A stretch of DNA of 63,927 nt, filler included, from Barthelona sp. PAP020 (lineage: Eukaryota): NCBI GenBank assembly GCA_040182905.1. It is 3 parts of 3 records of this genome, joined end to end, with 100 filler letters (N's around TTAATTAATTAA, not from the genome) between each part and the next. Parts side by side here need not be neighbours in the genome. Positions count along the whole stretch, not along the records: positions 1 to 24,529 come from JARQWU010000153.1; 2 more parts are not named here. One strand, given 5' to 3'. Shown in pieces: positions 3,890 through 24,629 of this stretch. Within the stretch, counting starts at the first letter, position 1; the number at the start of each line of letters is the position of its first letter. Position numbers and translations under genes: made by a program. The notes beneath the pieces are model-generated. The model did not search any database and was not told the origin of the DNA. It saw only the letters and a program-made list of their open reading frames with translations.

Positions 3890-3987
3890 TTTAAGTATTT
3901 ATCATAATACTGACCTTACAAAATGGTGGATTGAACACCTAGTAAAAAAAAATATACAGTAATTTACAGTATTTTAAAAATGATATC

Positions 3988-4948: not shown

Positions 4949-6286
4949 TTATTCATATTTTTTTTGAAGTTGAGAAATTTGTGCTAATCTGTTACCAATT
5001 GGAGGATGAGAATGTGTTAGTTTTGCGACCAAAGTATCTGGAGTGATTAATCCATGATTTGAAAGAGTACACAATGAAACCAAACCTTCTCCCAATTTAC
5101 AATTTTCTTTAAGAGTATTGCAAGCAAATTCATCTGCTTGAAATTCCATCTTCCAAGAGAAGTTATTCAAAACAAAATTGAGTAACAGATCAAAAGGTGT
5201 TAATAACATGGAATAAATACCGAATTGCAACAAAATAGGAATATTCATCTCATCAACAAACCAAAAATCTTTGGCAAAGTAAGTCATATAATGCTCAACA
5301 AAGATATACAAGCATAAATAGAAAATCAAATGAAATTGGTTAAAAATTAGCATCTTACCACTATGATGATGCTTATTGTGACCTATTTCATGTGCAATAA
5401 CAGAAAGGATTTCATCATTTTCCAATTCATTGATCACATTGTCAAAAATAACCAATTTCTTGGGTAAAAATGGTAAAACACTGAACATAAAGGCATTGCC
5501 ATGTTTTGTTCGTTTGGAAGCATCCATTATTTGGATGGATTTGATGTTGAAATTCACTTCTTGCGCATAAGTAAGAATTTTATCATAAAGTTCCCCTTCT
5601 TCCAATTTTTCGAACTTATTGAACATAGGCATGAATATGTAAAGATACAAATAGTTAAAAATTAATTGAAAAATTAAAATTCCCAAAAATACATATATTA
5701 GTGTTTGAGTTGATATTTTTTTCAACATTAAGATAGATAAAAATATAATTAAAGGCAAAATAAAGATAGAAATAACGCTAGACTTGAAAAAATCTTTAAA
5801 AAATTGTTTCAAGGTATTTGTATTGAAACCATGGCGCTCTTCAATAACAAATGAATTATACCAACTCCATGGAAGCTTTAAAGTTCGTAAAATTAAAGAA
5901 AAACTCAGAATTAAAAGAATAGAAACAAGATATTCATTTTGTGTAAATTGTTGAAAAAAATCCCATCCGTATTTAATTAAAGGAAAAAATAGATATAAAT
6001 ATGAACTGGGCAAAGTGATAAGAGTTTTCAATAAACCAAAACATAAGTTATCATTTTGATAATCCTGATTTTTATTAATATCTTCTTCACTAACATTTTC
6101 TTTAATTAATTGATGAACTTCTTTCTTTTTATTCGCAGAAAATTTTCTTTGATACAAATATAAATTGAATAAATCGTTTAGTATGCTTATGAAAATTATA
6201 AGTGCTCGATAAATCATAAGATTTAGAAGAATTGAAAAAAAAAAAAGAGTAAACATTCGAGGAAATTGTGATTTAAAACCTTCCAT
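4949..6286 (-). CDS. STE24: CAAX prenyl protease 1 (M48 zinc metalloprotease)
   Basis: Multi-TM; FVIEERHGFN, MDASKRTKHGNAF, zinc motif HEIGH, EFQAD, HSHPP..RL. Confidence 0.93.
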   Translation of the reverse strand: MEGFKSQFPRMFTLFFFSILLNLMIYRALIIFISILNDLFNLYLYQRKFSANKKKEVHQLIKENVSEEDINKNQDYQNDNLCFGLLKTLITLPSSYLYLFFPLIKYGWDFFQQFTQNEYLVSILLILSFSLILRTLKLPWSWYNSFVIEERHGFNTNTLKQFFKDFFKSSVISIFILPLIIFLSILMLKKISTQTLIYVFLGILIFQLIFNYLYLYIFMPMFNKFEKLEEGELYDKILTYAQEVNFNIKSIQIMDASKRTKHGNAFMFSVLPFLPKKLVIFDNVINELENDEILSVIAHEIGHNKHHHSGKMLIFNQFHLIFYLCLYIFVEHYMTYFAKDFWFVDEMNIPILLQFGIYSMLLTPFDLLLNFVLNNFSWKMEFQADEFACNTLKENCKLGEGLVSLCTLSNHGLITPDTLVAKLTHSHPPIGNRLAQISQLQKKYE

Positions 6287-6333
6287 TGTTTAATATTCAA
6301 TATTTATTGATGAATTTATTAATTTTTTAAGTT

Positions 6334-7086
6334 ATGAAATGTATTATATGTGAAAAAGATTCAAAATACAGATGTCCGAATTGTAGAAATCCTTATTGTT
6401 GTTCAAATTGTTTTAAAATTCATAAACAACAATCTAAATGTGAATCTACATCAAATGTCGAAAGATTTATTGATTTAAAACAATTTAATAACAATATTTT
6501 TGACAGAGATTTAACTTTTTTAAGTAACTCAAGTTTAACTGTGGAATTATCTAAAAGACAATTAAATCAAATAGAAAGTAATAATAAAAATAGAATATCT
6601 AAACGTTTTTCAAATTTGAAAAAATTTTGTTCAGATTTCAACATTTCCATAAATTTTCAACCAAATGTTTTTCAAAAACATTTGATTAATGACTCTTATT
6701 ATGATTTTCAAAGCAAAAGTTTAAAATTTCACTGTAGATTTCATTTTTTGGAAAACTTTCTTGGTAATACCTTTTTTGACTTGAAAGCTTCTTCTTCAAA
6801 TTTTACTTATACTATCAAAGAATTGTTTGATTTGATGACAAATGATATTCCTGCTTTACGACAAACTTTAATTTCCCATGGGTATGAGTCACCATCTTTT
6901 TGCTTTGTTAAAAATGGCACAAATGTGGACAAAGCTCAACTTAAATATTGTCAAGCCAATCATACATTGATTGATATTCTGATGGATGAGACGATTGAAG
7001 AATTTCCAGAGTTTATTGTTGCAAAGAATTTAGAAGGTCTTAATGACAGAGTCACACAATCTTTTGTTTTGTTTGTTCACAAATAG
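6334..7086 (+). CDS. BCD1: Box C/D snoRNA biogenesis protein (zf-HIT), BCD1/ZNHIT6-like
   Basis: N-terminal CxxC..YRCPNC..CCS.CFKIHK..C HIT finger; DLTFL segment; C-terminal TIEEFPEF. Confidence 0.8.
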   Translation: MKCIICEKDSKYRCPNCRNPYCCSNCFKIHKQQSKCESTSNVERFIDLKQFNNNIFDRDLTFLSNSSLTVELSKRQLNQIESNNKNRISKRFSNLKKFCSDFNISINFQPNVFQKHLINDSYYDFQSKSLKFHCRFHFLENFLGNTFFDLKASSSNFTYTIKELFDLMTNDIPALRQTLISHGYESPSFCFVKNGTNVDKAQLKYCQANHTLIDILMDETIEEFPEFIVAKNLEGLNDRVTQSFVLFVHK

Positions 7087-7998
7087 TCGTTCTTTTTGCC
7101 CACCTTCACTCGAAAAGTTTTTAAAGTTTTTTAATTTTGAAATTGGTGCATCGATGAATAAATGAAATATTTTTTGATTTTTATTTAAATTTAGGCAACT
7201 GATGTGGCCAGTAAACTGCCTAAATTCTGCTTCAAAATTGTATTTTCACATCTCAAACAAGATTACTTCTTCATAAGTTTGATAGGTGAAAAAATTTTGT
7301 TGTAAATATCAGATGGTTTTCTTTTGCTATTTCACCTCATAACACATATTTATTCCAAGAAAAATGTTGGGTAATGAAATAAAGATGATATAAAAATGTT
7401 CAATGCTACCTGATTGTGAAGCTTCTTGGCAAATCCCCAATCTTTGTCAGACTCAATGTCAGCAAAATGAGTAAGAGTCGCATGACTTCATTGGAAGTGA
7501 ACAAAGTGATGAAATTGTGATAACTATGATGATTGGTTGGCTAGAAAAAGTCAAAACCATTTGTTTAGGATATTCCGCAATATGACAAAACAATCAAAAA
7601 GTTTTGCTTTATTTATTAATTCACTGATATTCAACATTTTCATTCTTCACCAGTTTGCATATCAAATTCGTATTCCCCTGACCACTTATTTTGTTTGATT
7701 ATTTTATAGCAACAAAAAACAGGCAAATGATTGTTTTAATCAAATAAACTCTTTAAAATGAATTTTGAAAGTCTCAACAAATTTGATGTTCTCAAGTTTG
7801 GTGTTTGACATGCATTTAAAAATTCAATAATGAAAAAGAAAAAAACACAATTTATCAGTTTTATCAACAATACAATCAAAAAATGGATTAAATCCACCAT
7901 TTTTAAAATCATTTGCAACAATTATCAAAATATAAAATGAACAGAATGTGATAAGATGTGCAAGCGATTAAAAAAAAAAAGAATTTGAATTTTAACAA

Positions 7999-10779
7999 TC
8001 ATCTCAATCGAAGTTGCCCAGCTTCAATGAGTTTTTGAATTTTTCCTTGATAGACAGTCGGAATTCTAAATAAGAAGTCCTCATTTATTGAACCCGCCTT
8101 TTCCAGTCTTTGAAAGGCACCATCAGGTTTATTTACTCTAAAATACCATAAAGCAGCAACTAAATGGTCTTCAATATAACTTATAAATGGTACACACTGT
8201 TCATTTCCATGTTTTTCTTGAACCCATTGAACAACCCATTCAGATTTGATGTTCACACCTCTATCTAAGGTATTAATGACATCTGATAAGCTTCCACCAT
8301 CGATTAAACCTCTTAAACGACTGGATTGAAATAAGAGTTTTTGTAAATTTGTTATTTTTTTCACCTTTTCAGCTTCATTTTCTAAAAGCGTTCCGGAAGT
8401 CTTAAATAGAGTATAAACTATCTCACAAGGACTTGCAGTTGGCAAAATCTTTAATTTTTTGCAAATTTCATTCAATTCAAGGATTTTCTCACAATAAGAG
8501 ATATCTTTCGAAGTTAATGATGCTTTTTTCAAAATCTCTTCAGAATCTATGGTTAAATTATGTGAAATGTCATCGTTGACGTTTAAATTCCAAGCAAACT
8601 CCATTGTGATATCAACAGTCTTGGAAGTCAATCCTAACACTATTAATAAACGTTGTAGCCATTGTAAATCATGCAAAGCCAATGTTTCTTCGTCTTCATG
8701 TTGAGCATGAATAGGTATACTTGCTAAGATTGTTTTTTGAATGTAGCTTATCAATGGTGAGAGAGGTGCCTTCTTTAAAATTTGTAATACTTGTTCTTCA
8801 GTTAAAAGATCATGTTTTCTGAATAATGTATGTGCTACTTGAGCAAAAAGATCAGGATGATGTTCATTAGCTGATTCAGCCAGACATTTTCCAAATAAAT
8901 CCAAAAATTCGGGAGAATTATAGTCTAACAAAGATAATTGATGTAATCTCTGTTTAATCTTGAATTCCAAAGATTCCTCTTCATCCAGCAATTTAACACA
9001 AATATCGGTAAATTTTCTCTTTTCAGCAAATTCAGATAATTTGAGGAAAAACTCAGATTTACAAGCAAAAGATTCAGATCTGCTAAGACTGTTTTTGATG
9101 TCCTTAAGATTGGCAATAAACATTGGAATCTGCTCAGTAGTTATGGTCTCACTAGCAAATAATATTTTTTGCTTGCACAACTCTAACAGAATATTGTTTA
9201 AAAGCTCATTCTTTTTCGGGATTTCAAACAATCTCAAAATATGGATCGCATCTCTGAATAATCCACGATTGGTTAACATGTTACAAATATGAGGTATGCG
9301 AACCAATTCTAATTGATCAATAGTAATAGGCAAATGACATTGAAAGCGCAAATGATTTAGAATTCTCAATAATCGTAATGTATCTGTTCTTTCAGGTGTA
9401 AGTGTATCCTTGCAACTTAAAGCTAAATTGGTACCCAGAGTTAACAAAGACTTCTGTCTTTCCACATTCCATTCCTCAACCGCTGCTTCAATAAGTAAAT
9501 CAGCGATTTCATCAATTTTTTCGGCATTTTGGGCTTTCAATTTTGATAATAGCAAACTATCGTTGCCAGCAGAATAGAACATTGAAGCCTCATGCTCACT
9601 CTTTGATCCAAAGACCAATTTTGTTGTGATATCGACAAAACTGAAGAACTGTATACTGTCTAACCCAATAAATCTAACACCATCTGGTTCAGGGATGATA
9701 GATCCCCATGCTTCATTGCTAACCATCCTAGCAAAATATGTGTATGATGTAAAATACGCCTCTTTGGAAAGAATAGGAATAAAAACAATGTGCTCTGTGA
9801 ACCATAAACAGAGAGAAACAGGAGCATTCGGAGGGATACCAAAGAATTCAAATGCGATAAATTCAGAATCAAAATTACCATCTAACAAGCTGTTCATATG
9901 AAAGTATTTTACCAAATTGCAAAGTCCATCGTATATCATCAACTTAGACTTCAAAGATTCACTATTACGTGTTACAACAGCAATAAAATCATTACCGGAA
10001 ATAGTAATATTAGGCTTTTTGCTCCTTTTTATATGAGTGATAAATTCTTGATCTCCACTTAACTCTTCAACAACATGAGTTCGAATGGAACTTTCAGTCA
10101 CCAATAACAATAGAAGCTTATACCGAAATTCGTCAGCATTTATCTTAATAAACTCTTCAGTCAAAATGATACCACCAACGGACTTGCTGATACGGTCAAA
10201 AAATGGCAGTAACTTAATGATTTCCATTGAAAGGGGTAAACTATTTACCATAGAACCTGATATCTCTTCAGAACTTTGGTTATCAATGAAAGTATCCAAC
10301 TTATCAATGAAACATAACTCATAATTCAAATTGATTAATAATAAACCATGCAAAAAGGGATGCGCATATAAAATATGATTATTTGTTAGATTTTTTGGTA
10401 AATTATAAACTTCAGTTGGTCTATTTAATGAAACTAATTCAACTTTATTATGTTCATAGACTATCAAAATAATTTCATTCAATAATAAGCCAAAATTAAC
10501 AATTCTACCAAATTGTGAGTTTGTTTTATGTTTTTTAATCATTGTAGTATCCGCATTTAAAATGTAAAGAAAACCTCCACTGGAATAAGTATGATCACCA
10601 GTATCTGCAATCTTAGGTAATACTAAAAGCGGTCCTGCAAATGATGAAGAAGAAAACGCACAAGTACGCTTGGTTAAATCAATTAATTGAGGATCATCAA
10701 AAGTTGATCTAGTTATTGTTAATTTTCGATATGTTGAACTTCCAACATCAATATATGTATCAATATTCGGAAAATTCAT
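7999..10779 (-). CDS. VPS16: Vacuolar protein sorting 16 (HOPS/CORVET)
   Basis: IIPEPDGVRFI and LRLLRILNHLR..HLPITIDQL..MLTNRGLFRDAIHI match Vps16 signatures; beta-propeller plus alpha-solenoid layout, 926 aa. Confidence 0.8.
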   Translation of the reverse strand: MNFPNIDTYIDVGSSTYRKLTITRSTFDDPQLIDLTKRTCAFSSSSFAGPLLVLPKIADTGDHTYSSGGFLYILNADTTMIKKHKTNSQFGRIVNFGLLLNEIILIVYEHNKVELVSLNRPTEVYNLPKNLTNNHILYAHPFLHGLLLINLNYELCFIDKLDTFIDNQSSEEISGSMVNSLPLSMEIIKLLPFFDRISKSVGGIILTEEFIKINADEFRYKLLLLLVTESSIRTHVVEELSGDQEFITHIKRSKKPNITISGNDFIAVVTRNSESLKSKLMIYDGLCNLVKYFHMNSLLDGNFDSEFIAFEFFGIPPNAPVSLCLWFTEHIVFIPILSKEAYFTSYTYFARMVSNEAWGSIIPEPDGVRFIGLDSIQFFSFVDITTKLVFGSKSEHEASMFYSAGNDSLLLSKLKAQNAEKIDEIADLLIEAAVEEWNVERQKSLLTLGTNLALSCKDTLTPERTDTLRLLRILNHLRFQCHLPITIDQLELVRIPHICNMLTNRGLFRDAIHILRLFEIPKKNELLNNILLELCKQKILFASETITTEQIPMFIANLKDIKNSLSRSESFACKSEFFLKLSEFAEKRKFTDICVKLLDEEESLEFKIKQRLHQLSLLDYNSPEFLDLFGKCLAESANEHHPDLFAQVAHTLFRKHDLLTEEQVLQILKKAPLSPLISYIQKTILASIPIHAQHEDEETLALHDLQWLQRLLIVLGLTSKTVDITMEFAWNLNVNDDISHNLTIDSEEILKKASLTSKDISYCEKILELNEICKKLKILPTASPCEIVYTLFKTSGTLLENEAEKVKKITNLQKLLFQSSRLRGLIDGGSLSDVINTLDRGVNIKSEWVVQWVQEKHGNEQCVPFISYIEDHLVAALWYFRVNKPDGAFQRLEKAGSINEDFLFRIPTVYQGKIQKLIEAGQLRLR

Positions 10780-10992
10780 TTTCTATTACAAATAAAAATG
10801 TTTTTAAAGATTTTATTGTTGTTTTATTTGGACTTTTATCATGTTTATATGTTGTTTATTATGTATATATCTCCCTTTTACATATAACTTTTTTATTAAA
10901 TTCTTTTCATATCCTGGTCAATTTTTTTTTCTCTCTTTCATCATTATTTTCTTAATTTAAATGAATAATCTTGATATTGTATTATATTTTTA

Positions 10993-11360
10993 ATGTTTGT
11001 TGCTGACATATTTTTGGATACAGATTCTAATGACCCCACTTCTGCAACATTTACTTTCTTTGATGAAGACCATACTTTGGGTAATACTTTACGATATATT
11101 TTAATGGCAAAGTAACTCTGATTTATTGCGTGTTTATTCTGATTTTTAGTTCAAAAGTCGAATTTTGCGGTTGTTCCATTCCACATCCTCTTGAAAATAA
11201 AATGAAATTGCGTTTACAAACATATGAAGATGATGCAATTGAAGTGTTAATAGAAGCTGCTGATACAATTATGTGCATTTGTGATAGAGTTGAAGACAAA
11301 TTTGTGGCTGAATTGGAGATACATTTGTTGAATCAGGTCCTATTTGTGAACAATTTGTGA
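10993..11360 (+). CDS. POLR1D: RNA polymerase I/III subunit RPAC2 (AC19); exons 10993-11111 and 11150-11360
   Basis: Spliced product reads ...SATFTFFDEDHTLGNTLRYILMAN|SKVEFCGCSIPHPLENKMKLRLQT; 38-nt GT-AG intron at 11112-11149. Confidence 0.9.
11112..11149 (+). other. Spliceosomal intron (38 nt) in RPAC2
   Basis: GTAACT...TCTGATTTTTAG; removal joins the conserved DHTLGN and PHP motifs in frame. Confidence 0.9.
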
Positions 11361-14060: not shown

Positions 14061-16100
14061 TCAGTTTTCTTTCATGACTTGAACGGCACAGAATTTCAAT
14101 TCTGGAATTTTGGCAATTGGATCACAAACATCGTTGGTAAGTTTGTTTGCAGCGGCTTCTGCATAATGGAATGGAATAAAGATATCACCTTGTCTGACTC
14201 TTTTGAAAGCGCATTTGGCAACTATTTCTCCTCTTTTGGAAACTATCTTTACCATATCTCCTTCATTGATTCCTCTGACCTTTGCATCTTTTTCATTCAT
14301 CTCAACAATACATTCTGGAGCCAATTTGTTGAGCTTGGTACAACGACGAGTCATACTACCACTGTGATAATGTTGCAATTGTCTTCCAGTCATCAACACT
14401 AAAGGATAATCACTGTTAGGTAATTCTGCAGGTAAAGTATACTCACAAGGAGCAAATATTGCCAAACCATCAGGTTTGTTAAACCAATTTCTGTGTAAAA
14501 TAGGTGTTCCGGGATGATACTTGTCAGTACAGGGTGTATGAATACCATCAAGATTATCAATTCTGTCTAATGAAATGCCTCCATAAGAAGGTGTCATTTT
14601 AGCCATTTCATCAGTGATTTCAGATACATCCTTGTAATTCATAAGATATCCCATGGCGGTAGAAATTTTGCAAATTATTTCATAATCCGGAAGGGCTAAT
14701 CCAGGCGCATTTCTAACTTTTCTAATTCTTTGAACTCTTCTCTCTGTGTTTGTAACAGAACCATCCTCTTCAGCCAAAGCAGCAGCGGGCAAAACAACAT
14801 CTGCCAATTGAGCGGTTTCAGTAAGGAAAATATCAGAAACAACCAAGAAATCTAAATGTCCAAGAGCTTCAACAACATGATTAGCATTTGGATCTGTTAC
14901 AACAGGATTTTCTCCCATGATAAACATTCCTTTAAAATTACTTTCATGTGCAGCATTCATCATTTCACCAATTGAATAACCAATAGTGTTTGAAAGCTCA
15001 ACACCCCATTCTTTTTCAAAACGTTCTTGTGTTTCCTTATCTTCAACAGAGAAATAACTGGGGTAAACGTTAGGTAATGCACCTAAATCACAGGCTCCTT
15101 GTACATTGTTTTGACCACGAAGAGGATTAACACCCGCACCAGGTCTACCAATTTGTCCACATAGAAGTGCAAGATTGGCAATAGATCTAACATTAGCAAC
15201 ACCATGAGTATGTTGAGTTACACCCATAGTGTATACAATAGTTGCATTTTTAGCTTGAGCATACCAAAGTGCAACTTCACGAATAGCTTCAACAGACACA
15301 TCACAGATTTCAGCAGACTTTGCAACAGAAGTGTTGTTGATAATAGGCAATATTAAATCAAAATCTTTGGTCTTTGTTTCAATGAATTTCTTGTTATGAA
15401 GATTTTCTTCAATAATGATTTTCATAATGGCATTCAATAAGGGAATATCAGTACCAGGACGAATTTGAAGATGTCTATCTGCTTTCTTTGTTAAATCAAC
15501 AGCACGAGGATCAATAACAACTAATTTTGCTCCATTCTTAACAGCTCTGTTAATGGACAAAGCTGCCACAGGATGAGCTTCAGTGGTATTAGAACCAATG
15601 ACAAGAATCATATCAGATTCTTCCATATCAGCAAAAGTATTTGTCATTTGACCTGCGCCAAATGAAGCTCGAAGACCAGCAACAGTTGATGCATGACAAA
15701 GTCTGGCACAATGATCAACGTTATTGGTACCAAAGACAGCACGAATGAATTTTTGGAAAATATAATTGTCTTCATTGGAAGTACGAGCAGAGGATAAACC
15801 ACCCAAAGCATTGGAACCATATTGTTCTTTGATTTCTTTGAACTTCTTGGAAACTAATTCAATAGCTTCTTCCCAAGTTGCTTGTCTGAATGAACCGTCA
15901 GATCTACGAACAAGAGGACTTGTTAAACGATCATGATCTTCAAGGAAATCCATACCACTCATTCCTTTGATGCAAAGACTTCCTTTGTTAACAGCTGCGC
16001 ATTTAGCACCTTTTACTTTAACAATATGATCATGTTTCATTTGGAATTCAATGTTACAACCTACGCCACAATAGGGGCAAACAGAAGTAACAACACGGTC
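14061..16100 (-). other. Domain: formate dehydrogenase alpha/FdhF-like catalytic subunit (approximate N-terminal bound)
   Basis: CPYCGVGC...LCIKG [4Fe-4S] motif, SARTSNE, NNVDHCARLCH (metal-ligand Cys codon TGT at 15696-15698), GSNTTEAHP, MGVTQH, LRGQNNVQG, TNTERRVQ, TGRQLQHYHSG, NKLT...PELK. Confidence 0.93.
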
Positions 16101-19100
16101 TACATCTTCAATATCAACAGAAGTTTTCGGGATCTTCTTTGAAATTTCAGCCTTTTCAACCTTTTTGGTCTTTTTCTCAGTGGATTTAGCCTTTGGTTCT
16201 GTGTTTGAAGCAGAAACTTTGCCAACAAAACCATTAAATGTTCCTTCAATACCATCATCAGCTGCTTCATTGCATTTTACTAATGGTGCAAACATAACAA
16301 CATTCTTAGAAACCAATTTGTCATGAATAGAGATGGCTGCCTGACAGAAAAGATCATAATCAGATGAACCAAGTCCACAAATTGCACATTGAGCCTTAAC
16401 ATTAACACTATCCAATGCGTTGAAGAAACTTTCAGCATCAGCGGGGAATTCACCATCACCAACGGTTGATGTAACCATGATGACTTTATCATTAGTTTCT
16501 AATTCTTTAGCAGTTTCAGCATTCATTGGTTTAATTGGGACATTGAGTTTCTTTGCGATTGTATTGGCTAAACCTTCAGCATTGCCACTATCAGAACCAA
16601 ATAATACAATCATATTTGTTTCAGCAATTTTTTCAGTATTTTCAACTTTCTTTTCCTCAACTTTTTCAACTTTCTTTTTCTCAACTTTTTCAACTTTTAC
16701 CTCTTCAACTTTCTTTTCAACAGGTGCACCTAAATGTGCATCATGGAATTCTTTCATTTGACTAATTCTCCAATTCTTCAATTCAAGATCTTTTTCAAGC
16801 ATAGATTGAAGTGCTTCTGCACGTTCGGGATGAGATTTCATCAAAGTACGGAAACGATTTTCATTGAGAAGGAAATCACGTACAGATCCTTTAGGTGGTT
16901 TAGAATCAATGGATAATGGATTCTTTCCCTTAGCAATATTTGCAGGATTGTAACGATACAATGGCCAATATCCACATTCAACAGCTAATTGAGCTTGTGA
17001 ATAAGTTTGACCATTCACATTGTTAATACCGTGATTGATACAAGGTGAATATGCAAGAATAATGGAAGGACCATCATATTCTTCTGCTTCTTTAATAGCT
17101 TTCAATGCTTGAGCAGGATTAGCATTTACAGCAATAGAAGCAACATAAACACTACCAATACCCATAGCTAATAAACCAAGATCTTTTTTGGCTTGTCCTT
17201 TACCAGCAGCTGCAAATCTTGCAACAGCAGAACGAGGAGAAGATTTGGAAACTTGTCCACCTGTATTGGAATAAACTTCAGTATCTAAAACAAAAATATT
17301 ACAATTGATACCCATATTAAGGACATGATCGAGACCACCATAACCAATATCATAGGCCCAACCATCACCTCCCATTGTCCAAGCAACAGGGCGAATGAAA
17401 AGATGCTTAAGAGTATAAATTGATTTTTCAAGATCTGATCCTTCACCAACAAAGAAATTGTTGAGTTTATCACATAATTCCCTCGAAGGATCGCTTGTGT
17501 TGAGCCATTCTTCAAGTAAAGGTTTGACATTAGAATCAGCTTCGGGAAGATACAACTTGACAAAATATTGCAATCTTTCGCGCATTTTTTCCAAACCTAC
17601 CTTAACACCAAGACCAAATTCAGCAGTATCTTCAAATAATGTTCCCAAGAAAGCAGGTCCTCTTCCATTAGAATCCTTAGCCCAAGCAGAGGCTGGATAA
17701 GTACCACCCCAGACAAGAGAACAACCACAAGAATCAGATAAATACAATCTATCTCCCCATAATTGAGTAACCATTTTAATATGGGCAGTTTCACCACAAC
17801 CAGCGCAAGCGGCAGAATATTGAAGATATGGTTTTTGCATCATAGCATTCTTGACACCCTTATCATTGAATAACTTTCCAGCCTTTTCATCAAGAGCATT
17901 CTCTTCAATAATCTTCCATGTTTCAATTTGATCAATGGACTTACCACCCATTGTCAAAGCATCCTTTGGACATGCTGAAGCACAAACATGACAACCAAGA
18001 CAATCAAGAGGAGAAATTTGAATTGAGAATTCATGGCCTTTATTCTTTCCTTTCATTTCAATTCCATGAATATTGAATTCATTTTCAGATTCAACAACAA
18101 TTGGTCTGATCGAAGCATGAGGACATACTGCAACACATTCATTACATTGAATACATTTGTTAGAATCCCATGAAGGAACTTTTAAAGCAACACCACGCTT
18201 TTCATATTGAGAAGTACCAATTGGAACTAAACCACCAATGGCGGGAACAAATTTCGAAACTGGAATAGTGTGTCCTTTTTGATGCATATGAGGTAAAACA
18301 ACATTTTTAAACCACTCAGGTGCATCAGGATAAAGTTCAGGACGAACAAGAGGTAAAGTTTCAAGATCAGACCAAGAAAGGGGATAATCAATGGCTGTGA
18401 GGTGAGAAAGAGCTTGATCAACAGCAGCAATATTCTTGTTAACAACAGCATCACCCTTTTTTCCATAAGTACGTTTGATACCATCCTTCAATAAATTAAT
18501 GGCATGATCAATTTCAATAACTTCAGAAAGCTTGAAAAAAACTGTTTGCATAACCATATTGATTCTACCAGTTAAACCAACATTTTCAGCAATATTAGTG
18601 GCATGAATTGTGTACAATTTGATCTTCTTGTCAGCAATATCCTTTCTTAAACGTGCTGGGATATTCTTATCACAAGCTTCAATTGTTTGCCAATCACAAT
18701 TTATAACAAAGGCCGCACCTTCCTTGGCATTTGCAAGCAAATCATACATTTGAACATATGCTGCATTGTGACATGCAACATAATCAGCATTATTCACATG
18801 ATATGCTGACTTGATTTCAGTAGGTCCAAATCTCAAATGTGAAGTGGTAAATCCACCCGATTTCTTCGCATCATATTGGAAATATCCTTGACAATAGTAA
18901 TCAGTATTATCACCAATAATTTTAACAGCTTCCTTATTTGCTCCAACTGTACCATCAGCACCCAAAGCATAGAATAAACATTGTTTAGTGGTTTCTTCCA
19001 TTGTGTTAATTTCTTTATCAACGACAAGATTGCTAAATGTAAGATCATCATTCAAACCAACTGTGAAGAAATCACGTTTTTCGGTTTCAAAACCATTCTT

Positions 19101-22100
19101 AAATACAGATAAAGCATGAGAAGGAGTGTATTCCTTACCACCAATACCATAAATACCACAAAGAACTTCAATTTCAGGACGATTTTTAAACAAAGATTCA
19201 GAAACGGAAAGATAAAGAGGAGGCATAGAATTGTATTCAAGTGTTTTATCAAGAACTGTAACACACTTAACTGTGGAAGGCAAAGCAGAAAGAAGATGCT
19301 TGGTTGAGAAGGGTCTGAATAAACGTACTTTAATCAAACCTACCTTTTGACCTTGATTATTCAAGTACTTGACAGTTTCTTCAGTAGCATTAGCACAGGA
19401 AGACATCATAACAATGACATGTTCAGCATCCTTTGCACCAACATAATCAAAGAGATGATATTGACGACCAATAAGATTGGCAAAACGATTCATGCAGTCT
19501 TCAACAGCTTCAGGAACAGCTAAGAAATGTTCTTCGGCAGTTTGTTCAAATTGCCAGAAAGTATCTGCATTTTCAACACCTCCACGTGCGGTAGGTTTAT
19601 AATTATTCATAACACCACCACTGGATCTATATTTAGTCAATGCTTCAAAATTGTATAAAGATTTCATTTCTTCAGTAGTTAAGACATCAATCTTTGAAAC
19701 TTCATGAGAAACACGCATACCATCAAAGAAATGAACAATAGGAACACGAGTTTCAATTGTAGCAAGATGTGAAATGACAGCAAGATCATGAGCTTCTTGA
19801 ACTGAATTGGAAGATAACATCGACCATCCAGTTTGACGAATACTCATAACATCTGTATGATCACAGAAAATATTCATAGCTTGACCAGCAATAACACGAG
19901 AAGCAACATGGAAAACGCAAGGTTGCAATTCAGATGACATCTTGTACATATTTGGAACCATGAGTAACAATCCTTGAGAACAAGTATACGTTGAAGTAAG
20001 AGATCCGGTAACACTGGCACCATGAAGAGCACCTGAAACACCACCTTCAGATTGCATTTGTGTGGAAGGAACAGTACGTCCAAAAATGTTTAATCTTTGA
20101 TCAGAACCCCACTTGTCTGCATATTCACACATTGGTGAGGAAGGTGTGATAGGATAAAGGAAAGACATATCAGAATAAGCATAACCAGCAGTAATAGCTG
20201 CAGTATTTCCATCCATAGTCATCCAATTGGGTTGACGAGGTTTAACCAAATCAACAACAGGTTTAATGCTTCTCAAAACAAAATCAGCCTTGATTTCAGG
20301 TTGACTTCCTTTTGCCATTTCAGTAAGTCTTTCACCAACTTCTAACATTTGTTGAAGAGAAAGATGCTTATGATTAACATCATCTTCAAGGGCTTTTTGT
20401 AATTCTTCAGCTCTTTCAGGATGAGTTCTCAAAAGAGAAGAGAAACGTACTTCATTTTCAAGTAATTCTCTTAAAGGTTTCTTTGCAGGCTTATGATCAA
20501 TTTGAAGAGGATTCTTACCGGCAGCAACACGACGAGGATCATAACGGTAAAGTGGCCAATAACCAGTTTCAACAGCCAACGCTCCTTCAAAAACAGCAGA
20601 AGCAAGTCCCTTCTTAATACCATGATTAATACAAGGACAGTAAGCAAGAATAATAGAAGGACCATCATATTCTTCTGCTTCTTTGATAGCTTTTAATGCT
20701 TGAGTTCTGTTGGCACCAATGGAAATTGAAGCAACATAAACACCACCAATATTCATAGCATGAAGACCAAGATCTTTTTTGCGTTGATTTTTACCTAAAG
20801 CGGCAAATCTAGCTACAGCAGCACGAGGAGAAGCCTTAGAAACTTGTCCACCTGTATTAGAATAAACTTCAGTATCCATAACAAAAATGTTAGCATTCAA
20901 ACCCATATTAAGAACTTGGTCAAGACCACCAAATCCAATATCATAGGCCCAACCATCACCACCAATAATCCATGGAACTGGACGAACAAAAAGATGATAG
21001 TTATCCTTAATGGTTTGAAGTAAAAGTGAAGATTCAAGAGGTTCAATCAATTCATTAATTGAATCGGCAAGTTCTTGGGGAACAGTAACATCTTCATCAT
21101 ATAAAGCGATCCATTTCTTCAAAAGACCTTTCAAATCATCAGAAATGTTGGTTTCCAATAAAGCTTCAACATCATGTCTGAGATGAACCCTACGATTCTT
21201 TAAACCAATAGTCATTCCCAAACCAAATTCAGCAGCATCTTCAAACAAAGTACCCGCGAAGGAAGGTCCATGACCACGTTCATTTTGAGCCCATGCTGAG
21301 ACAGGATACATACCTCCCCAAACAAGAGAACAACCACAAGCATCAGCAATGTACAATTTTTCTTGGAAAAGTTGTGTGATTAATTTAACATGTGCAGTTT
21401 CCATACATCCAGCACATGCACCAGAAAATTCTAAGAAAGGTGTATGATATTGAACATCTTTCATGCTCTTGGAATCAAAAGAATCTCCATGTTTCTTTAC
21501 ATGAGTTGAATATTCGTGATTAAGAACATCACCTGCTGCTTCATCCAAAGGAACCATGGACAAGGCACCTTTCTTACAAACAGTAGAACAAACAGAACAA
21601 CCCATACAATCCAATGGAGAAACCTGGATTCTGTAAGATAACTCATCAGGATTTTTACCTTTAACTTTAACAGTTTCAAAAGTAGAAGGTGCAGTTTTCA
21701 ATTCTTCAGGATCTACTAAAGAAGGTCTAATAGCTGCATGAGAACAAACAGCGGTACAATCGTTACATTGAATACATTTAGCTGAATCCCAAATAGGAAC
21801 TTTTAATGCAACTCCTCTCTTTTCAAAACAAGTTGTACCAGTAGGGATAGCTCCTCCTTTTGCTTGAACAAATTTAGAAACAGGCAATAAATCACCCATT
21901 TGTCTTCCAACTGGAGCAACAATCTCTTTAAACCATTCAGAAGCATCTTTAGGTGGTTGATATTCATCAACAGCATCCAAAAGAGCCCAACTTTCAGGAT
22001 AAGCAATTTCAATGGTTGCTGCCAAAGCTTGATCAATAGCTTCAATATTTGAATCAACAACGGCTTGTCCTTTCTTTGAAAAAGTCTTAACGACAGCATT

Positions 22101-23861
22101 CTTCAACAATTCAACAGCTTGATCAACAGGTAAAACATTTGCCATACTAAAGAAAGCTGTTTGCATCACCATATTAATTCTACCAGTCAAACCAACACGA
22201 TCAGCAATAGCAAAAGCGTCGATTACAACAAACTTCAATTTTCTTACTGCAATGATTTTCTTCATTGTTGAGGGTAATTTCTTTTCTAATTCCTTTAAAT
22301 CCTTCCAGGAACAATTCAAAACAAAAGTAGCTCCTTGTTTAGCAGTACATAACATATCAAATTGAGTGATATAAGCAGGATTATGACAAGCAATATAATC
22401 AGCATCTCTAACACTATATTCAGCATGAATTTCTTCAGGACCAAATCTTAAATGTGAAACAGTGAAACCACCGGATTTCTTTGCATCATATTGGAAATAG
22501 CCCTGACAAAAATTATCAGAATTGTCACCAATAATTTTAATAGCACTCTTATTGGCAGAAACAGTACCATCAGCACCTAAAGCATAGAATAAACATTGTT
22601 TTACATCATCAGAAAGTGCATTTAAATGTTCGGTAACTTCAAGATGAGAATTTAAGAGATCATCAATAATTCCAATATTAAAGTCGTTCTTTGGAATATC
22701 TCTTTTCATATTTTCAAAAACTGCTAAAGCATCACTAGGAATAAATTCCTTTCCACCAATACCATATCTACCAGTGAAAACCTTAATATTAAGTTGTTTT
22801 CTACGACAAGCAGCAACGACATCAAGATATAAAGGTTCACCATTTGAACCTACCTCATGAGTCTTATCTAAAACAGTGATCATGTTAACTGAAGAAGGTA
22901 AAGCTTCAACAAAAAGATCAACAGAAAAAGGACGGAACAAACGGACCTTTAATAAACCAACTTTTTCTCCTCTTTGTACCAAGACCTTAACAACATCTTC
23001 AACAGCAGAAACACCTGATCCCATTAAAATAACAACTCTTTCTGCATCTGGGGCACCAACATAATCAAAAGCATGGTATCTACGACCAGTTAATTTGAAA
23101 AATTGATCCATAGTTTCTTCAACAATTTGAGGAACTTTATCAAAATAAGGTTGGGCAGCATGAACAAATTGCCAAAAAATATCAGGTCCTTCAACACCAC
23201 CTCTTTCATTGGGTTTATCAGCATTAACAATTGCACGATTGCGGAATTCGTTCAATTTTTCAAAAGGATACATTGATGAAATGTCTTCATTCGTCAAAAT
23301 ATCAATCTTATTGACCTCATGAGAAAGACGGAAACCATCAAAGAAGTGTAAAAATGGAACAGATGCTTTCACAGTAGCTAAATGAGAAATTGCACCAAAA
23401 TCATGAGCTTCTTGGACAGATGTAGATGATAACATAGACCAACCGGTTTGACGAACAGCCATTACATCGGAATGGTCACAAAATATATTCATAGCTTGAC
23501 CAGCAATAACTCTTGATGCAACATGGAAAACGCAAGGTTGCAATTCTCCAGCAATTTTATACATTTCAGGTAACATCAATAATAAACCTTGAGAACATGT
23601 GTATGTGGAAGTTAAAGCTCCAGTGACTGTGGCTCCATGAAGTGCACCAGAAACACCACCTTCAGATTGCATTTGAATGCAATCAACAACCTCTCCAAAA
23701 ATATTTTTTCTATTTTGGCCAGCCCATGTATCTGCCATCTCACACATTGGTGAAGATGGAGTAATTGGATAAAGGAAAGCTAAATCAGAACATGCATAAC
23801 CTGCTTGAATAGCTGCGGTATTTCCATCAACAGAATGATAATTTGGCTTACGATCTTGCAT
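14061..23861 (-). CDS. Fusion protein PFO-PFO-flavodoxin-formate dehydrogenase (Mo/W-bis-PGD), 3266 aa
   Basis: One uninterrupted ORF from ATG 23861 (MQDRKPNYHSVDGN...) containing two full PFO units, a flavodoxin and an FdhF-like catalytic subunit; see domain features. Confidence 0.92.
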   Translation of the reverse strand: MQDRKPNYHSVDGNTAAIQAGYACSDLAFLYPITPSSPMCEMADTWAGQNRKNIFGEVVDCIQMQSEGGVSGALHGATVTGALTSTYTCSQGLLLMLPEMYKIAGELQPCVFHVASRVIAGQAMNIFCDHSDVMAVRQTGWSMLSSTSVQEAHDFGAISHLATVKASVPFLHFFDGFRLSHEVNKIDILTNEDISSMYPFEKLNEFRNRAIVNADKPNERGGVEGPDIFWQFVHAAQPYFDKVPQIVEETMDQFFKLTGRRYHAFDYVGAPDAERVVILMGSGVSAVEDVVKVLVQRGEKVGLLKVRLFRPFSVDLFVEALPSSVNMITVLDKTHEVGSNGEPLYLDVVAACRRKQLNIKVFTGRYGIGGKEFIPSDALAVFENMKRDIPKNDFNIGIIDDLLNSHLEVTEHLNALSDDVKQCLFYALGADGTVSANKSAIKIIGDNSDNFCQGYFQYDAKKSGGFTVSHLRFGPEEIHAEYSVRDADYIACHNPAYITQFDMLCTAKQGATFVLNCSWKDLKELEKKLPSTMKKIIAVRKLKFVVIDAFAIADRVGLTGRINMVMQTAFFSMANVLPVDQAVELLKNAVVKTFSKKGQAVVDSNIEAIDQALAATIEIAYPESWALLDAVDEYQPPKDASEWFKEIVAPVGRQMGDLLPVSKFVQAKGGAIPTGTTCFEKRGVALKVPIWDSAKCIQCNDCTAVCSHAAIRPSLVDPEELKTAPSTFETVKVKGKNPDELSYRIQVSPLDCMGCSVCSTVCKKGALSMVPLDEAAGDVLNHEYSTHVKKHGDSFDSKSMKDVQYHTPFLEFSGACAGCMETAHVKLITQLFQEKLYIADACGCSLVWGGMYPVSAWAQNERGHGPSFAGTLFEDAAEFGLGMTIGLKNRRVHLRHDVEALLETNISDDLKGLLKKWIALYDEDVTVPQELADSINELIEPLESSLLLQTIKDNYHLFVRPVPWIIGGDGWAYDIGFGGLDQVLNMGLNANIFVMDTEVYSNTGGQVSKASPRAAVARFAALGKNQRKKDLGLHAMNIGGVYVASISIGANRTQALKAIKEAEEYDGPSIILAYCPCINHGIKKGLASAVFEGALAVETGYWPLYRYDPRRVAAGKNPLQIDHKPAKKPLRELLENEVRFSSLLRTHPERAEELQKALEDDVNHKHLSLQQMLEVGERLTEMAKGSQPEIKADFVLRSIKPVVDLVKPRQPNWMTMDGNTAAITAGYAYSDMSFLYPITPSSPMCEYADKWGSDQRLNIFGRTVPSTQMQSEGGVSGALHGASVTGSLTSTYTCSQGLLLMVPNMYKMSSELQPCVFHVASRVIAGQAMNIFCDHTDVMSIRQTGWSMLSSNSVQEAHDLAVISHLATIETRVPIVHFFDGMRVSHEVSKIDVLTTEEMKSLYNFEALTKYRSSGGVMNNYKPTARGGVENADTFWQFEQTAEEHFLAVPEAVEDCMNRFANLIGRQYHLFDYVGAKDAEHVIVMMSSCANATEETVKYLNNQGQKVGLIKVRLFRPFSTKHLLSALPSTVKCVTVLDKTLEYNSMPPLYLSVSESLFKNRPEIEVLCGIYGIGGKEYTPSHALSVFKNGFETEKRDFFTVGLNDDLTFSNLVVDKEINTMEETTKQCLFYALGADGTVGANKEAVKIIGDNTDYYCQGYFQYDAKKSGGFTTSHLRFGPTEIKSAYHVNNADYVACHNAAYVQMYDLLANAKEGAAFVINCDWQTIEACDKNIPARLRKDIADKKIKLYTIHATNIAENVGLTGRINMVMQTVFFKLSEVIEIDHAINLLKDGIKRTYGKKGDAVVNKNIAAVDQALSHLTAIDYPLSWSDLETLPLVRPELYPDAPEWFKNVVLPHMHQKGHTIPVSKFVPAIGGLVPIGTSQYEKRGVALKVPSWDSNKCIQCNECVAVCPHASIRPIVVESENEFNIHGIEMKGKNKGHEFSIQISPLDCLGCHVCASACPKDALTMGGKSIDQIETWKIIEENALDEKAGKLFNDKGVKNAMMQKPYLQYSAACAGCGETAHIKMVTQLWGDRLYLSDSCGCSLVWGGTYPASAWAKDSNGRGPAFLGTLFEDTAEFGLGVKVGLEKMRERLQYFVKLYLPEADSNVKPLLEEWLNTSDPSRELCDKLNNFFVGEGSDLEKSIYTLKHLFIRPVAWTMGGDGWAYDIGYGGLDHVLNMGINCNIFVLDTEVYSNTGGQVSKSSPRSAVARFAAAGKGQAKKDLGLLAMGIGSVYVASIAVNANPAQALKAIKEAEEYDGPSIILAYSPCINHGINNVNGQTYSQAQLAVECGYWPLYRYNPANIAKGKNPLSIDSKPPKGSVRDFLLNENRFRTLMKSHPERAEALQSMLEKDLELKNWRISQMKEFHDAHLGAPVEKKVEEVKVEKVEKKKVEKVEEKKVENTEKIAETNMIVLFGSDSGNAEGLANTIAKKLNVPIKPMNAETAKELETNDKVIMVTSTVGDGEFPADAESFFNALDSVNVKAQCAICGLGSSDYDLFCQAAISIHDKLVSKNVVMFAPLVKCNEAADDGIEGTFNGFVGKVSASNTEPKAKSTEKKTKKVEKAEISKKIPKTSVDIEDVDRVVTSVCPYCGVGCNIEFQMKHDHIVKVKGAKCAAVNKGSLCIKGMSGMDFLEDHDRLTSPLVRRSDGSFRQATWEEAIELVSKKFKEIKEQYGSNALGGLSSARTSNEDNYIFQKFIRAVFGTNNVDHCARLCHASTVAGLRASFGAGQMTNTFADMEESDMILVIGSNTTEAHPVAALSINRAVKNGAKLVVIDPRAVDLTKKADRHLQIRPGTDIPLLNAIMKIIIEENLHNKKFIETKTKDFDLILPIINNTSVAKSAEICDVSVEAIREVALWYAQAKNATIVYTMGVTQHTHGVANVRSIANLALLCGQIGRPGAGVNPLRGQNNVQGACDLGALPNVYPSYFSVEDKETQERFEKEWGVELSNTIGYSIGEMMNAAHESNFKGMFIMGENPVVTDPNANHVVEALGHLDFLVVSDIFLTETAQLADVVLPAAALAEEDGSVTNTERRVQRIRKVRNAPGLALPDYEIICKISTAMGYLMNYKDVSEITDEMAKMTPSYGGISLDRIDNLDGIHTPCTDKYHPGTPILHRNWFNKPDGLAIFAPCEYTLPAELPNSDYPLVLMTGRQLQHYHSGSMTRRCTKLNKLAPECIVEMNEKDAKVRGINEGDMVKIVSKRGEIVAKCAFKRVRQGDIFIPFHYAEAAANKLTNDVCDPIAKIPELKFCAVQVMKEN
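16218..16613 (-). other. Domain: flavodoxin (FMN-binding, CPR/PNO-type; approximate bounds)
   Basis: LFGSDSGNAEGLA phosphate loop, VTSTVGDGEFPADA, GLGSSDYDLFC. Confidence 0.9.
16755..20240 (-). other. Domain: pyruvate:ferredoxin oxidoreductase unit 2 (approximate bounds)
   Basis: YPITP, MQSEGG, GADGTVG, CIQCNEC...CP / CLGCHVC...CP, ACAGC, CGCS, GGDGWAYDIG, DTEVYSNTGGQ, PCINHG. Confidence 0.95.
20345..23861 (-). other. Domain: pyruvate:ferredoxin oxidoreductase unit 1 (approximate bounds)
   Basis: YPITP, MQSEGG, GADGTV, CIQCNDC...C / CMGCSVC...C 2[4Fe-4S] domain, ACAGC, CGCS, GGDGWAYDIG, DTEVYSNTGGQ, PCINHG. Confidence 0.95.
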
Positions 23862-24529: not shown

Positions 24530-24629
24530 NNNNNNNNNNNNNNNNNNNNNNNNNNNNNNNNNNNNNNNNNNNNTTAATTAATTAANNNNNNNNNNNNNNN
24601 NNNNNNNNNNNNNNNNNNNNNNNNNNNNN
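24530..24629. other. Artificial contig spacer
   Basis: 44 N + TTAATTAATTAA (stops in all six frames) + 44 N. Confidence 0.97.

What the first reader, a model, noticed from the sequence alone, without database searches (positions are those of the whole stretch)
14061..16100. Mo/W-bis-PGD (DMSO-reductase family) formate dehydrogenase encoded in a eukaryotic nuclear contig
Seen: CPYCGVGC-x-C [4Fe-4S] ligands, the conserved Lys (LCIKG), the CARLCH active site with Cys where E. coli FdhF has Sec, the adjacent His, and the catalytic Arg in RGQNNVQG. Known: characterised eukaryotic molybdoenzymes belong to the sulfite oxidase, xanthine oxidase and mARC types. Eukaryotic FDHs are metal-free NAD enzymes, and bis-PGD enzymes need MobA and usually FdhD. 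Inference: laterally acquired from an anaerobic prokaryote, implying that a bis-MGD pathway was also acquired. None of those genes is in this window.
Basis: partly seen in the sequence, partly recalled or inferred. Interest (0 to 1): 0.88.

Follow-up and report, generated by a model that had tools for sequence, protein, structure and literature searches.

The report
Protist pyruvate-to-formate fusion enzyme
An anaerobic single-celled eukaryote carries one giant nuclear gene joining two pyruvate-oxidising enzymes, a flavodoxin and a bacterial-type formate dehydrogenase; it likely passes pyruvate's electrons onto CO2 to make formate and would need a molybdenum or tungsten cofactor that a recent review still calls prokaryote-only, although the fusion itself is already listed in a 2024 supplementary table.

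Summary
The formate dehydrogenase (FDH) is real, and every named motif is present. It is not a stand-alone gene. It is the last domain of one intron-free 3,266-aa frame (23861-14061, minus strand): PFOR-PFOR-flavodoxin-FDH. The gene is nuclear: it shares an N-free contig with eukaryote-specific genes, has host codon use, and has a full-length orthologue in Barthelona sp. PCE. The two FDH domains form one clade among prokaryotic FDHs, donor unresolved, and keep all 48 of the most conserved columns. Williams et al. 2024 list this gene as 'PFO-FdhF' in supplementary tables; their main text never mentions FDH or molybdenum. Pelomyxa already has a listed FdhF, FdhD and MobA. Best reading (0.55): PFOR electrons pass through flavodoxin to reduce CO2 to formate, a radical-free equivalent of pyruvate formate-lyase; formate oxidation is the main rival (0.22). 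The bis-MGD pathway could not be checked because no genome is held. The scan's notes showed no earlier report of this fusion. New variant of a known kind; interest 0.65.

The parts
14061..23861 (-). Single intron-free ORF, 3,266 aa from ATG 23861 (frame open from TTG 23879): PFOR-PFOR-flavodoxin-FDH fusion
   Evidence: a 3,266-aa 100% match exists in the protein collection (P0002); length and the 400 residues shown match gene model PAP153g00100 in Supplementary Data 1 of PMC11316075
20346..23834 (-). PFOR domain 1 (aa 16-1178): YPITP, QSEGG, HVASR, two ferredoxin-type 4Fe-4S motifs, SGACAGC, GDGWAYD, EVYSNTGGQ, PCINHG all intact
   Evidence: TIGR02176 1541.6 bits, cut-off 911; alignment
20223..20345 (-). 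About 40-aa linker between the two PFOR domains
   Evidence: similar length in the PCE orthologue
16776..20222 (-). PFOR domain 2 (aa 1220-2368), 57% identical to domain 1, same motifs intact
   Evidence: TIGR02176 1465.2 bits; 1215.7 bits to Moorella PFOR 6cin
16617..16775 (-). Lys/Glu/Val-rich linker (KVEE repeats)
   Evidence: sequence; much shorter in PCE
16236..16607 (-). Flavodoxin (FMN) domain, aa 2425-2548; GSDSGNAE, STVGDGEFP and GLGSSDYDLFC loops
   Evidence: PF00258 67.7 bits, cut-off 25; best PDB hits are a flavodoxin (6gaq) and a NOS FMN domain; 39% identical to the PCE domain
16098..16235 (-). Lys-rich linker ending in a VDIEDV stretch shared with PCE
14061..16097 (-). FdhF/FdhA-type formate dehydrogenase catalytic core (aa 2595-3272): one 4Fe-4S site, Cys metal ligand, His, Arg, C-terminal molybdopterin-dinucleotide domain; lacks the N-terminal Fe-S module of its nearest prokaryotic relatives
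   Evidence: model pLDDT 96.5; TM 0.97-0.98 to 7vw6 and 1fdi
15693..15710 (-). Active-site CARLCH: C2728 (TGT) and H2729
15096..15119 (-). RGQNNVQG with catalytic R2921
2624..11357 (.). Eukaryote-specific neighbours on the same N-free contig: doublecortin (2624-3889), CAAX protease Ste24 (4949-6286), BCD1/zf-HIT (6334-7086), Vps16-like (7999-10779), RNA polymerase Rpb11-type subunit (11085-11357)
24530..24629 (.). Artificial scaffold linker N44-TTAATTAATTAA-N44 marking the end of the gene's contig

Best explanation
This nuclear gene of a barthelonid flagellate encodes one polypeptide of two PFOR domains, a flavodoxin and an FdhF-type formate dehydrogenase, which likely works as an internal wire that oxidises pyruvate and uses the electrons to reduce CO2 to formate at a predicted Mo/W-bis-MGD site. 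Shown: architecture, intact catalytic motifs in all four domains, nuclear location, conservation in a second genus, and prokaryotic affinity of the FDH against host-lineage affinity of the PFORs. Inferred: (1) the two PFOR copies fold as a single-chain version of the PFOR homodimer; (2) pyruvate + CoA gives acetyl-CoA + CO2 + 2 e-; (3) the tethered flavodoxin replaces both free ferredoxin and the N-terminal Fe-S relay that the donor FDH had, carrying electrons one at a time to the FDH 4Fe-4S cluster; (4) the metal site reduces CO2 to formate. The net reaction, pyruvate + CoA -> acetyl-CoA + formate, is that of pyruvate formate-lyase without a glycyl radical. Acetyl-CoA would yield ATP through the ADP-forming ACS these organisms have, and formate would leave as the electron sink. 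Cytosolic location is likely (no presequence predicted in the published table). An own bis-MGD pathway is inferred, about 0.75, not shown.
For: Architecture. Orthologue P0003 (Barthelona sp. PCE, 3,240 aa, 2.13-Mb contig; 54% identity overall, 57% in the FDH); the two strains are now separate genera (PMC13087550, passages). Both FDH domains keep 48 of 48 columns that are at least 90% conserved in 101 diverse representatives, and 189 and 192 of 211 columns conserved in the 120 nearest homologues, against 149 for E. coli FdhF, after about 0.86 substitutions per site between them. Sibling logic: both barthelonids also have PFO+flavodoxin+flavorubredoxin, and skoliomonads have PFO+flavodoxin; PNO has the same chassis (P0280). 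In those the module after PFO-flavodoxin is the electron acceptor (established knowledge). Thermodynamics from PMC5861303 (passages): -500 mV to -430 mV gives -13.5 kJ/mol, and flavodoxin SQ/HQ couples are generally below -400 mV. Precedent for ferredoxin-driven CO2 reduction in Clostridium pasteurianum (PMC8965080, passages). Published expression in PCE: fusion FPKM 704, stand-alone PFO 44.6, PFL 0; in skoliomonads, with no such fusion listed, PFL reaches FPKM 982-4092 in 7 rows of the top-100 lists. No HydE/F/G maturases in the clade, and the only 'HydA' row seen for PAP020 is its Nar1 model. Pelomyxa shows that a eukaryote can carry FdhF with FdhD and MobA.
Against: No activity, metal or cofactor data. 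Moco, MobA and FdhD genes were not examined in either barthelonid, and 'molybd' and 'FdhD' have no hits in 5 of the 6 supplementary files of PMC11316075 that could be searched (those tables are selective). The flavodoxin also resembles NOS/CysJ/CPR-type FMN domains, whose lower couple is near -270 to -330 mV (recalled); that would make CO2 reduction uphill. Both strains retain PFL and its activase, a source of formate to oxidise, and PCE expresses a long HydA at FPKM 856 that could take the electrons. The PFL value of 0 belongs to an odd gene model (7,802 nt for 745 aa), other rows have implausibly low values (0.84, 0.86), no FPKM exists for PAP020, and the fusion is not in PCE's top 100. The paper's text says PAP020 has a HydA with a targeting signal, at odds with the rows I saw.
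Confidence: 0.55

Rival explanations
1. Convergent donor hub: the FDH oxidises formate (from PFL, one-carbon metabolism or prey) and, like the PFORs, loads the flavodoxin, which passes electrons out to an [FeFe]-hydrogenase or the flavodiiron oxygen-removing module; a formate hydrogen-lyase-like role.
For: PFL and PFLA present in both strains; PCE HydA FPKM 856 and PFO-Fld-flavorubredoxin FPKM 476; formate to H2 is near equilibrium (-3.1 kJ/mol); this role was proposed for the Pelomyxa FdhF (PMC10579272, passages); the FMN domain resembles diflavin-reductase types.
Against: A covalent PFOR-Fld-FDH chain short-circuits the stronger donor into the weaker one. The same chassis ends in an acceptor in PNO and in the flavorubredoxin sibling. 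PFL FPKM is 0 in PCE (noisy). A fermenter gains little by making more electrons.
Confidence: 0.22
2. The FDH domain is a cofactor-less relic or scaffold, because the host cannot make bis-MGD, or it works only with cofactor salvaged from prey.
For: No Moco gene seen in the window or in the searchable supplements; a 2026 review says DMSO-reductase-family enzymes occur only in prokaryotes (PMC13653126, passages); orphan molybdoproteins without a full pathway occur in prokaryotes (PMC6147048, passages).
Against: Metal ligand, His, Arg, Lys and the guanine-dinucleotide contact positions are all retained in two genera at 57% identity; non-catalytic NuoG scores far below its cut-off; Pelomyxa has MobA and FdhD.
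Confidence: 0.08
3. Reverse use: formate oxidation drives reductive carboxylation of acetyl-CoA to pyruvate (formate assimilation).
For: Both half-reactions are reversible (established knowledge); the wiring allows it.
Against: Uphill by 13.5 kJ/mol; a phagotroph has no evident need to fix carbon, and consuming acetyl-CoA costs it ATP.
Confidence: 0.07
4. The C-terminal domain is a bis-PGD enzyme with another substrate (nitrate or a sulfur oxyanion) serving as a respiratory sink for PFOR electrons.
For: Nap is structurally close (TM 0.97); NasC 556 and NapA 365 bits.
Against: Only the FDH model passes its cut-off; the top 8 fold hits and top 10 sequence hits are FDH-type; Cys-His and RGQ-N motifs are FDH-type.
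Confidence: 0.04
5. Assembly chimera or bacterial contamination.
For: The window is a concatenation of contigs; the gene has no introns; read support could not be examined.
Against: One unbroken frame on an N-free contig with five eukaryote-specific genes; GC3 0.18-0.23 like the host, and FDH codon use correlates 0.92-0.95 with the PFOR domains; the same four-domain order in an independent assembly of another genus; the PFORs group with a Skoliomonas PFO (SH-aLRT 100).
Confidence: 0.02

Closest known systems
'PFO-FdhF fusion protein' of Barthelona sp. PAP020 (PAP153g00100) and PCE (g1634 / PCE1_000018), Williams et al. 2024, PMC11316075, Supplementary Data 1 and 2
   Same: Same gene: 3,272 aa, 9,819 nt and the 400 residues shown match; same domain list 'PFO + PFO + Flavodoxin + Formate dehydrogenase', filed under LGT.
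   Different: Only listed. The main text has 0 hits for 'molybd' and its 'formate' hits are PFL (section 11 read whole). No active-site, cofactor, phylogenetic or mechanistic analysis was seen. The main Supplementary Information PDF and one scanned file could not be read.
Pelomyxa schiedti FdhF with NifU-FdhD and MobA (PMC8887013, PMC10579272, PMC10711303)
   Same: DMSO-reductase-family genes with maturation factors listed in a eukaryotic genome.
   Different: Not described as PFOR-fused; read as formate oxidation. The first 400 residues shown for Pelo_718 have TLCSMSG, not CARLCH, so that copy is probably not a canonical FDH; the sequence of Pelo_6878 was not seen.
Pyruvate:NADP+ oxidoreductase (PNO) and barthelonid PFO-flavodoxin-flavorubredoxin
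   Same: PFOR fused to a flavodoxin and then a terminal redox module.
   Different: Terminal module is a metal FDH, not an FAD/NADP or flavodiiron domain; PFOR is doubled.
Prokaryotic FdhF/FdhA: E. coli FdhF (1aa6/1fdi), HDCR FdhF (7qv7), M. extorquens W-FDH1 (7vw6), F420-FDH (9t1s, 7bkb)
   Same: Same fold (TM 0.94-0.98 for the full-length chains), cluster ligands, Lys, His, Arg and dinucleotide contacts.
   Different: Cys ligand instead of E. coli's Sec (all 120 nearest homologues also have Cys); no separate electron-transfer subunits; N-terminal Fe-S module replaced by a flavodoxin.
Clostridium pasteurianum ferredoxin:CO2 oxidoreductase fed by PFOR; pyruvate formate-lyase
   Same: Same predicted net chemistry, pyruvate to acetyl-CoA + formate (for the CO2 reductase; PFL from established knowledge).
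   Different: There the steps are separate proteins linked by free ferredoxin, or one glycyl-radical enzyme; here one polypeptide in a eukaryote.

Membership tests
Metal-dependent FDH (FdhF/FdhA type, DMSO-reductase family) | Passes the curated FDH-alpha model | tested here: met
   TIGR01591 856.8 vs cut-off 666.25, profile 2-672 of 672
Metal-dependent FDH (FdhF/FdhA type, DMSO-reductase family) | Four Cys of the proximal 4Fe-4S cluster and the bridging Lys | tested here: met
   C2601/2604/2608/2636 and K2638 align to E. coli C8/11/15/42 and K44; same in PCE
Metal-dependent FDH (FdhF/FdhA type, DMSO-reductase family) | Cys/Sec metal ligand followed by His, and the active-site Arg | tested here: met
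   C2728, H2729, R2921
Metal-dependent FDH (FdhF/FdhA type, DMSO-reductase family) | bis-MGD contact positions and four-domain fold | tested here: met
   Positions equal to E. coli N176, D202, R204, G221, M297, Q335, G402, E403, D429, T579, R581, H585, N662, K679 are kept in both species (the list of contact positions is recalled, not from a call); PF01568; TM 0.97 to 1fdi
Metal-dependent FDH (FdhF/FdhA type, DMSO-reductase family) | Bound Mo- or W-bis-MGD with sulfido ligand; formate/CO2 activity | not testable with these tools
   needs purified protein
Metal-dependent FDH (FdhF/FdhA type, DMSO-reductase family) | Host encodes Moco synthesis, MobA and FdhD | not testable with these tools
   no genome held; none in the window
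NuoG (non-catalytic) | Passes the NuoG model; has lost metal ligand and cofactor contacts | tested here: not met
   187.6 vs 470 bits; ligands retained
Nap/Nas nitrate reductases | Passes NapA or NasC model | tested here: not met
   365 vs 904 and 556 vs 1100 bits
Single-chain PFOR (TIGR02176) | Full-length model match with TPP motif, substrate residues and three 4Fe-4S sites | tested here: met
   1541.6 and 1465.2 vs 911 bits; motifs in all four barthelonid copies; alignment to 6cin
Single-chain PFOR (TIGR02176) | Pyruvate specificity; dimer formed by the two tandem copies | not testable with these tools
   too large for the folding tools; the loop after HVASR differs from canonical PFORs
PNO (pyruvate:NADP+ oxidoreductase) | PFOR + flavodoxin + FAD/NADP-binding domain | tested here: not met
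   no FAD or NAD(P)-binding family among the 20 Pfam matches; works like PNO in wiring only
Laterally acquired nuclear gene | On a host contig, host composition, shared with a related eukaryote, nested among prokaryotic homologues | tested here: met
Laterally acquired nuclear gene | Identified donor lineage | tested here: inconclusive
   sister group unsupported (0.32; open polytomy); most homologues unnamed
Laterally acquired nuclear gene | Read depth and transcript continuity | not testable with these tools
   no run was listed; only a published FPKM for the PCE orthologue

The most novel reading that the evidence does not exclude
Barthelonids built a single-chain, radical-free 'pyruvate formate-lyase' by grafting a prokaryotic Mo/W-bis-MGD CO2 reductase onto a doubled host PFOR-flavodoxin, make the bis-MGD (perhaps tungsten) cofactor themselves, and use CO2 rather than protons as a main electron sink: the first working DMSO-reductase-family enzyme, and possibly the first tungsten enzyme, in a eukaryote.
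Probability: 0.45. Interest if true: 0.85.

Novelty: new variant of a known kind. Interest (0 to 1): 0.65.

Why it matters
A 2026 review states that DMSO-reductase-family enzymes are found only in prokaryotes and that no tungsten enzyme is known in eukaryotes. A conserved, expressed, intact-looking FdhF in two culturable protist genera makes that directly testable. If the fusion reduces CO2, it adds a fourth way to split pyruvate in anaerobic eukaryotes (beside PFO, PNO and PFL), offers an electron sink in a lineage without hydrogenase maturases, and would make formate a cross-feeding currency with the surrounding bacteria. A natural one-chain PFOR-to-FDH wire is also a template for CO2-reduction and formate-assimilation engineering. 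Interest is held at 0.65 because the architecture is already catalogued in a supplement, Pelomyxa gives a genomic precedent, and direction and cofactor supply are untested.

Tried and rejected
Whole genome: none held, so the Moco/MobA/FdhD search could not be run. Sequencing runs: none was listed, so no reads were laid; this is no evidence either way. Cluster look-ups could not be made, so the unnamed long FDH homologues stay without taxonomy. DNA-pattern scans gave only distant or partial FDHs: 1 locus of 47 stretches in genome contigs and 3 of 85 in metagenome contigs. Other fused forms: 4 hits among 4,809 candidates of 1,799-5,726 aa, only P0003 with the PFOR architecture; none of the best 150 representatives matched the flavodoxin part of a Fld+FDH query (32,192 hits in all, only 150 seen). 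Scan notes: nothing by place, relatives or words; by sequence only 8 unrelated prokaryotic FDH operons. Literature: 0 papers for PFO-FdhF/PFOR-FDH spellings and 0 for 'molybdenum cofactor' + 'anaerobic protist' + 'guanylyltransferase'; some searches gave only the papers cited. The careful IQ-TREE search did not finish and the quick tree is reported; the script stopped with an error after printing its tree. No complex prediction was run: the domains are covalently joined and carrier docking rarely scores. Rejected: stand-alone FDH gene; Sec recoding (codon is TGT); NuoG or Nap identity; contamination; the ORF at 1597-2553 as an NAD-dependent FDH (120 vs cut-off 329 bits); Cys in place of Sec as a peculiarity (120 of 120 nearest homologues have Cys, though Sec proteins may be under-called).
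Full report
Observation. The ligand codon is TGT. The 683-residue stretch passes TIGR01591 (856.8 bits, cut-off 666) and fails the NuoG, NapA and NasC cut-offs. Its best solved relatives are FDHs by sequence and by fold: a model from a 75-row alignment has pLDDT 96.5 and TM-scores of 0.97-0.98 to 7vw6 and 1fdi. Residue numbers below count from the TTG frame (P0001); subtract 6 for the ATG start.

The stretch is the end of a single 3,272-codon frame, 23879-14061, first ATG at 23861. Its order is PFOR (1541.6 bits), PFOR (1465.2 bits), flavodoxin (PF00258, 67.7 bits), FDH. Both PFOR copies keep the substrate motifs, the TPP motif and the cysteines of three 4Fe-4S sites. The 120 nearest stand-alone FDHs are 50-54% identical, and most are about 900 aa with an N-terminal Fe-S module; in the fusion that module is gone and the flavodoxin sits in its place.

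Is it nuclear? The window is three contigs joined by artificial linkers. The gene lies on the first (1-24529, no N) with doublecortin, Ste24, BCD1, a Vps16-like gene and an Rpb11-type subunit. GC3 of the domains is 0.18-0.23, as in host genes, and FDH codon use correlates 0.92-0.95 with the PFOR domains and 0.82 with the pooled host ORFs. A search of the FDH region among 4,809 candidates of 1,799-5,726 aa gave 4 hits: the protein itself, P0003 of Barthelona sp. PCE with the same architecture on a 2.13-Mb contig, and two unrelated fusions. P0003 is 54% identical overall. The two strains are now different genera (PMC13087550, passages). Read depth could not be checked; no run was listed.

Origin. 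The two FDH domains form a clade in a 225-row FastTree (0.997; 225 of 276 stored proteins passed a full-length filter) and in a 56-row quick IQ-TREE (SH-aLRT 100; the careful search did not finish). The sister group is unsupported in both, and most homologues are unnamed, so the donor is unresolved. The four PFOR domains group with a Skoliomonas PFO (SH-aLRT 100; 37 rows), and the best hit to the PFOR2-flavodoxin junction is a Skoliomonas PFO-flavodoxin. I infer that a prokaryotic FDH core was grafted onto a host PFO-flavodoxin chassis before the two genera split.

Is the FDH kept functional? Against E. coli FdhF, C8/11/15/42, K44, Sec140 (Cys here), H141 and R333 are kept in both species, as are most dinucleotide-contact positions (that list of positions is recalled). 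Both keep 48 of 48 columns conserved at 90% in 101 of the 150 diverse representatives (49 dropped as partial or with long inserts). Of 211 columns conserved at 95% in the 120 nearest homologues, the window keeps 189, PCE 192 and E. coli 149; that set was chosen by likeness to the window, so PCE is the fairer test. This fits selection for a cofactor-loaded enzyme but does not show one.

What is in print. Williams et al. 2024 (PMC11316075; main-text passages, section 11 whole, supplement 4 whole, searches of 5 of 6 supplementary files) list 'PFO-FdhF fusion protein' under LGT for PCE (FPKM 704) and PAP020, the latter matching this gene in length and in the 400 residues shown, with the domain list in Supplementary Data 2. 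The main text mentions neither FDH nor molybdenum (preprint passages). The main Supplementary Information PDF was too large to read and one file is a scan; either might say more. Yazaki et al. 2020 (PMC7542792, passages) has no hit for 'formate'. Pelomyxa schiedti has a listed FdhF and NifU-FdhD (PMC8887013 and PMC10711303, passages and a supplement search) and a second FdhF plus a molybdenum cofactor guanylyltransferase (PMC10579272, passages and supplement search). A 2026 review still calls the family exclusively prokaryotic (PMC13653126, passages). Searches for the fusion by name found 0 papers.

Mechanism. Best reading (0.55): pyruvate + CoA -> acetyl-CoA + CO2 at the PFORs, electrons through the tethered flavodoxin to the FDH cluster, and CO2 -> formate at the metal. 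With -500 and -430 mV (PMC5861303, passages) this is -13.5 kJ/mol. Ferredoxin-driven CO2 reduction is known from C. pasteurianum (PMC8965080, passages). The same chassis ends in an acceptor module in PNO and in the barthelonid PFO-flavodoxin-flavorubredoxin. In PCE the fusion has FPKM 704 and PFL 0, while skoliomonads, with no fusion listed, express PFL at 982-4092. The clade lacks hydrogenase maturases. Against: the FMN domain also resembles NOS/CysJ types, whose potentials (recalled) would be too high; PFL and PFLA genes persist in both strains; PCE expresses a long hydrogenase at FPKM 856; the PFL zero sits on an odd gene model in a noisy column; and the fusion is not in PCE's top 100. Formate oxidation feeding hydrogenase or the flavodiiron module is therefore a serious rival (0.22). 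A cofactor-less or salvage-dependent domain (0.08), reverse flux (0.07), another substrate (0.04) and artefact (0.02) follow. The single-chain PFOR pseudo-dimer is inferred from the known homodimeric state of PFOR and a linker of about 40 aa; it was not modelled.

Cofactor pathway. No Moco, MobA or FdhD gene is in the window, no genome is held, and the scan's notes had nothing for this genome.

Verdict. Observation confirmed, interpretation partly supported. By every sequence and structure feature I could test, the domain is an FdhF-type FDH; cofactor and activity are untestable here. The protein works like PNO in wiring and is predicted to match PFL in net chemistry, but belongs to neither family. 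New variant of a known kind, already catalogued in a supplement but, as far as my searches reach, never analysed or assayed. Interest 0.65; the most novel reading has probability 0.45 and would merit 0.85.

Noticed in passing
window 24530-24629 and 49145-49244: Artificial N44-TTAATTAATTAA-N44 linkers: the window is three concatenated contigs, so adjacency across them means nothing.
   Followed up: yes
P0003 (PCE orthologue), PFOR1 vs PFOR2: The two PCE copies group together (68% identical, up to 84% in the C-terminal block; SH-aLRT 100) rather than each with its positional counterpart in the window protein: gene conversion within PCE or independent doubling.
   Followed up: partly
P0004 (unnamed, 1,848 aa): 2Fe-2S + GltD-like + FDH protein with an intein-like insert of about 430 aa placed exactly in the DH|CARLCH active-site loop.
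   Followed up: no
P0127 (unnamed, 1,589 aa): GltD-like + FDH + C-terminal MobA-like domain in one chain (PF12804 50 bits; Atlas leads at 0.89); groups with P0004 (SH-aLRT 92). Taxonomy unknown.
   Followed up: partly
PMC8887013 Table S2, Pelo_718: The protein labelled FdhF lacks CARLCH in the 400 residues shown and looks like another bis-PGD family; a later paper names a different gene (Pelo_6878) as FdhF.
   Followed up: partly
PMC11316075 Supplementary Data 1 and 2, PAP020 rows: The only HydA row seen for PAP020 is the same model listed as Nar1, whereas the text infers MRO hydrogenase activity.
   Followed up: partly
window 1597-2553 (+): Short phosphoglycerate-dehydrogenase-like D-2-hydroxyacid dehydrogenase on the same contig; below all cut-offs.
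   Followed up: partly
window 25403-26551 (-): Class IV aminotransferase closest to D-amino-acid transaminases, with a Glu-rich tail; possible bacterial origin.
   Followed up: no
window 57741-60389 (+) and 61370-62761 (+): Phosphoglycerol-transferase-like sulfatase and an SBF/ACR3-like transporter on the third contig, with higher GC3 (0.38, 0.34) than most host genes.
   Followed up: no
window 45833-46510 (+) and 40164-40865 (+): ORF with a Crp/MarR-like helix-turn-helix, and a DUF6962 membrane protein.
   Followed up: no
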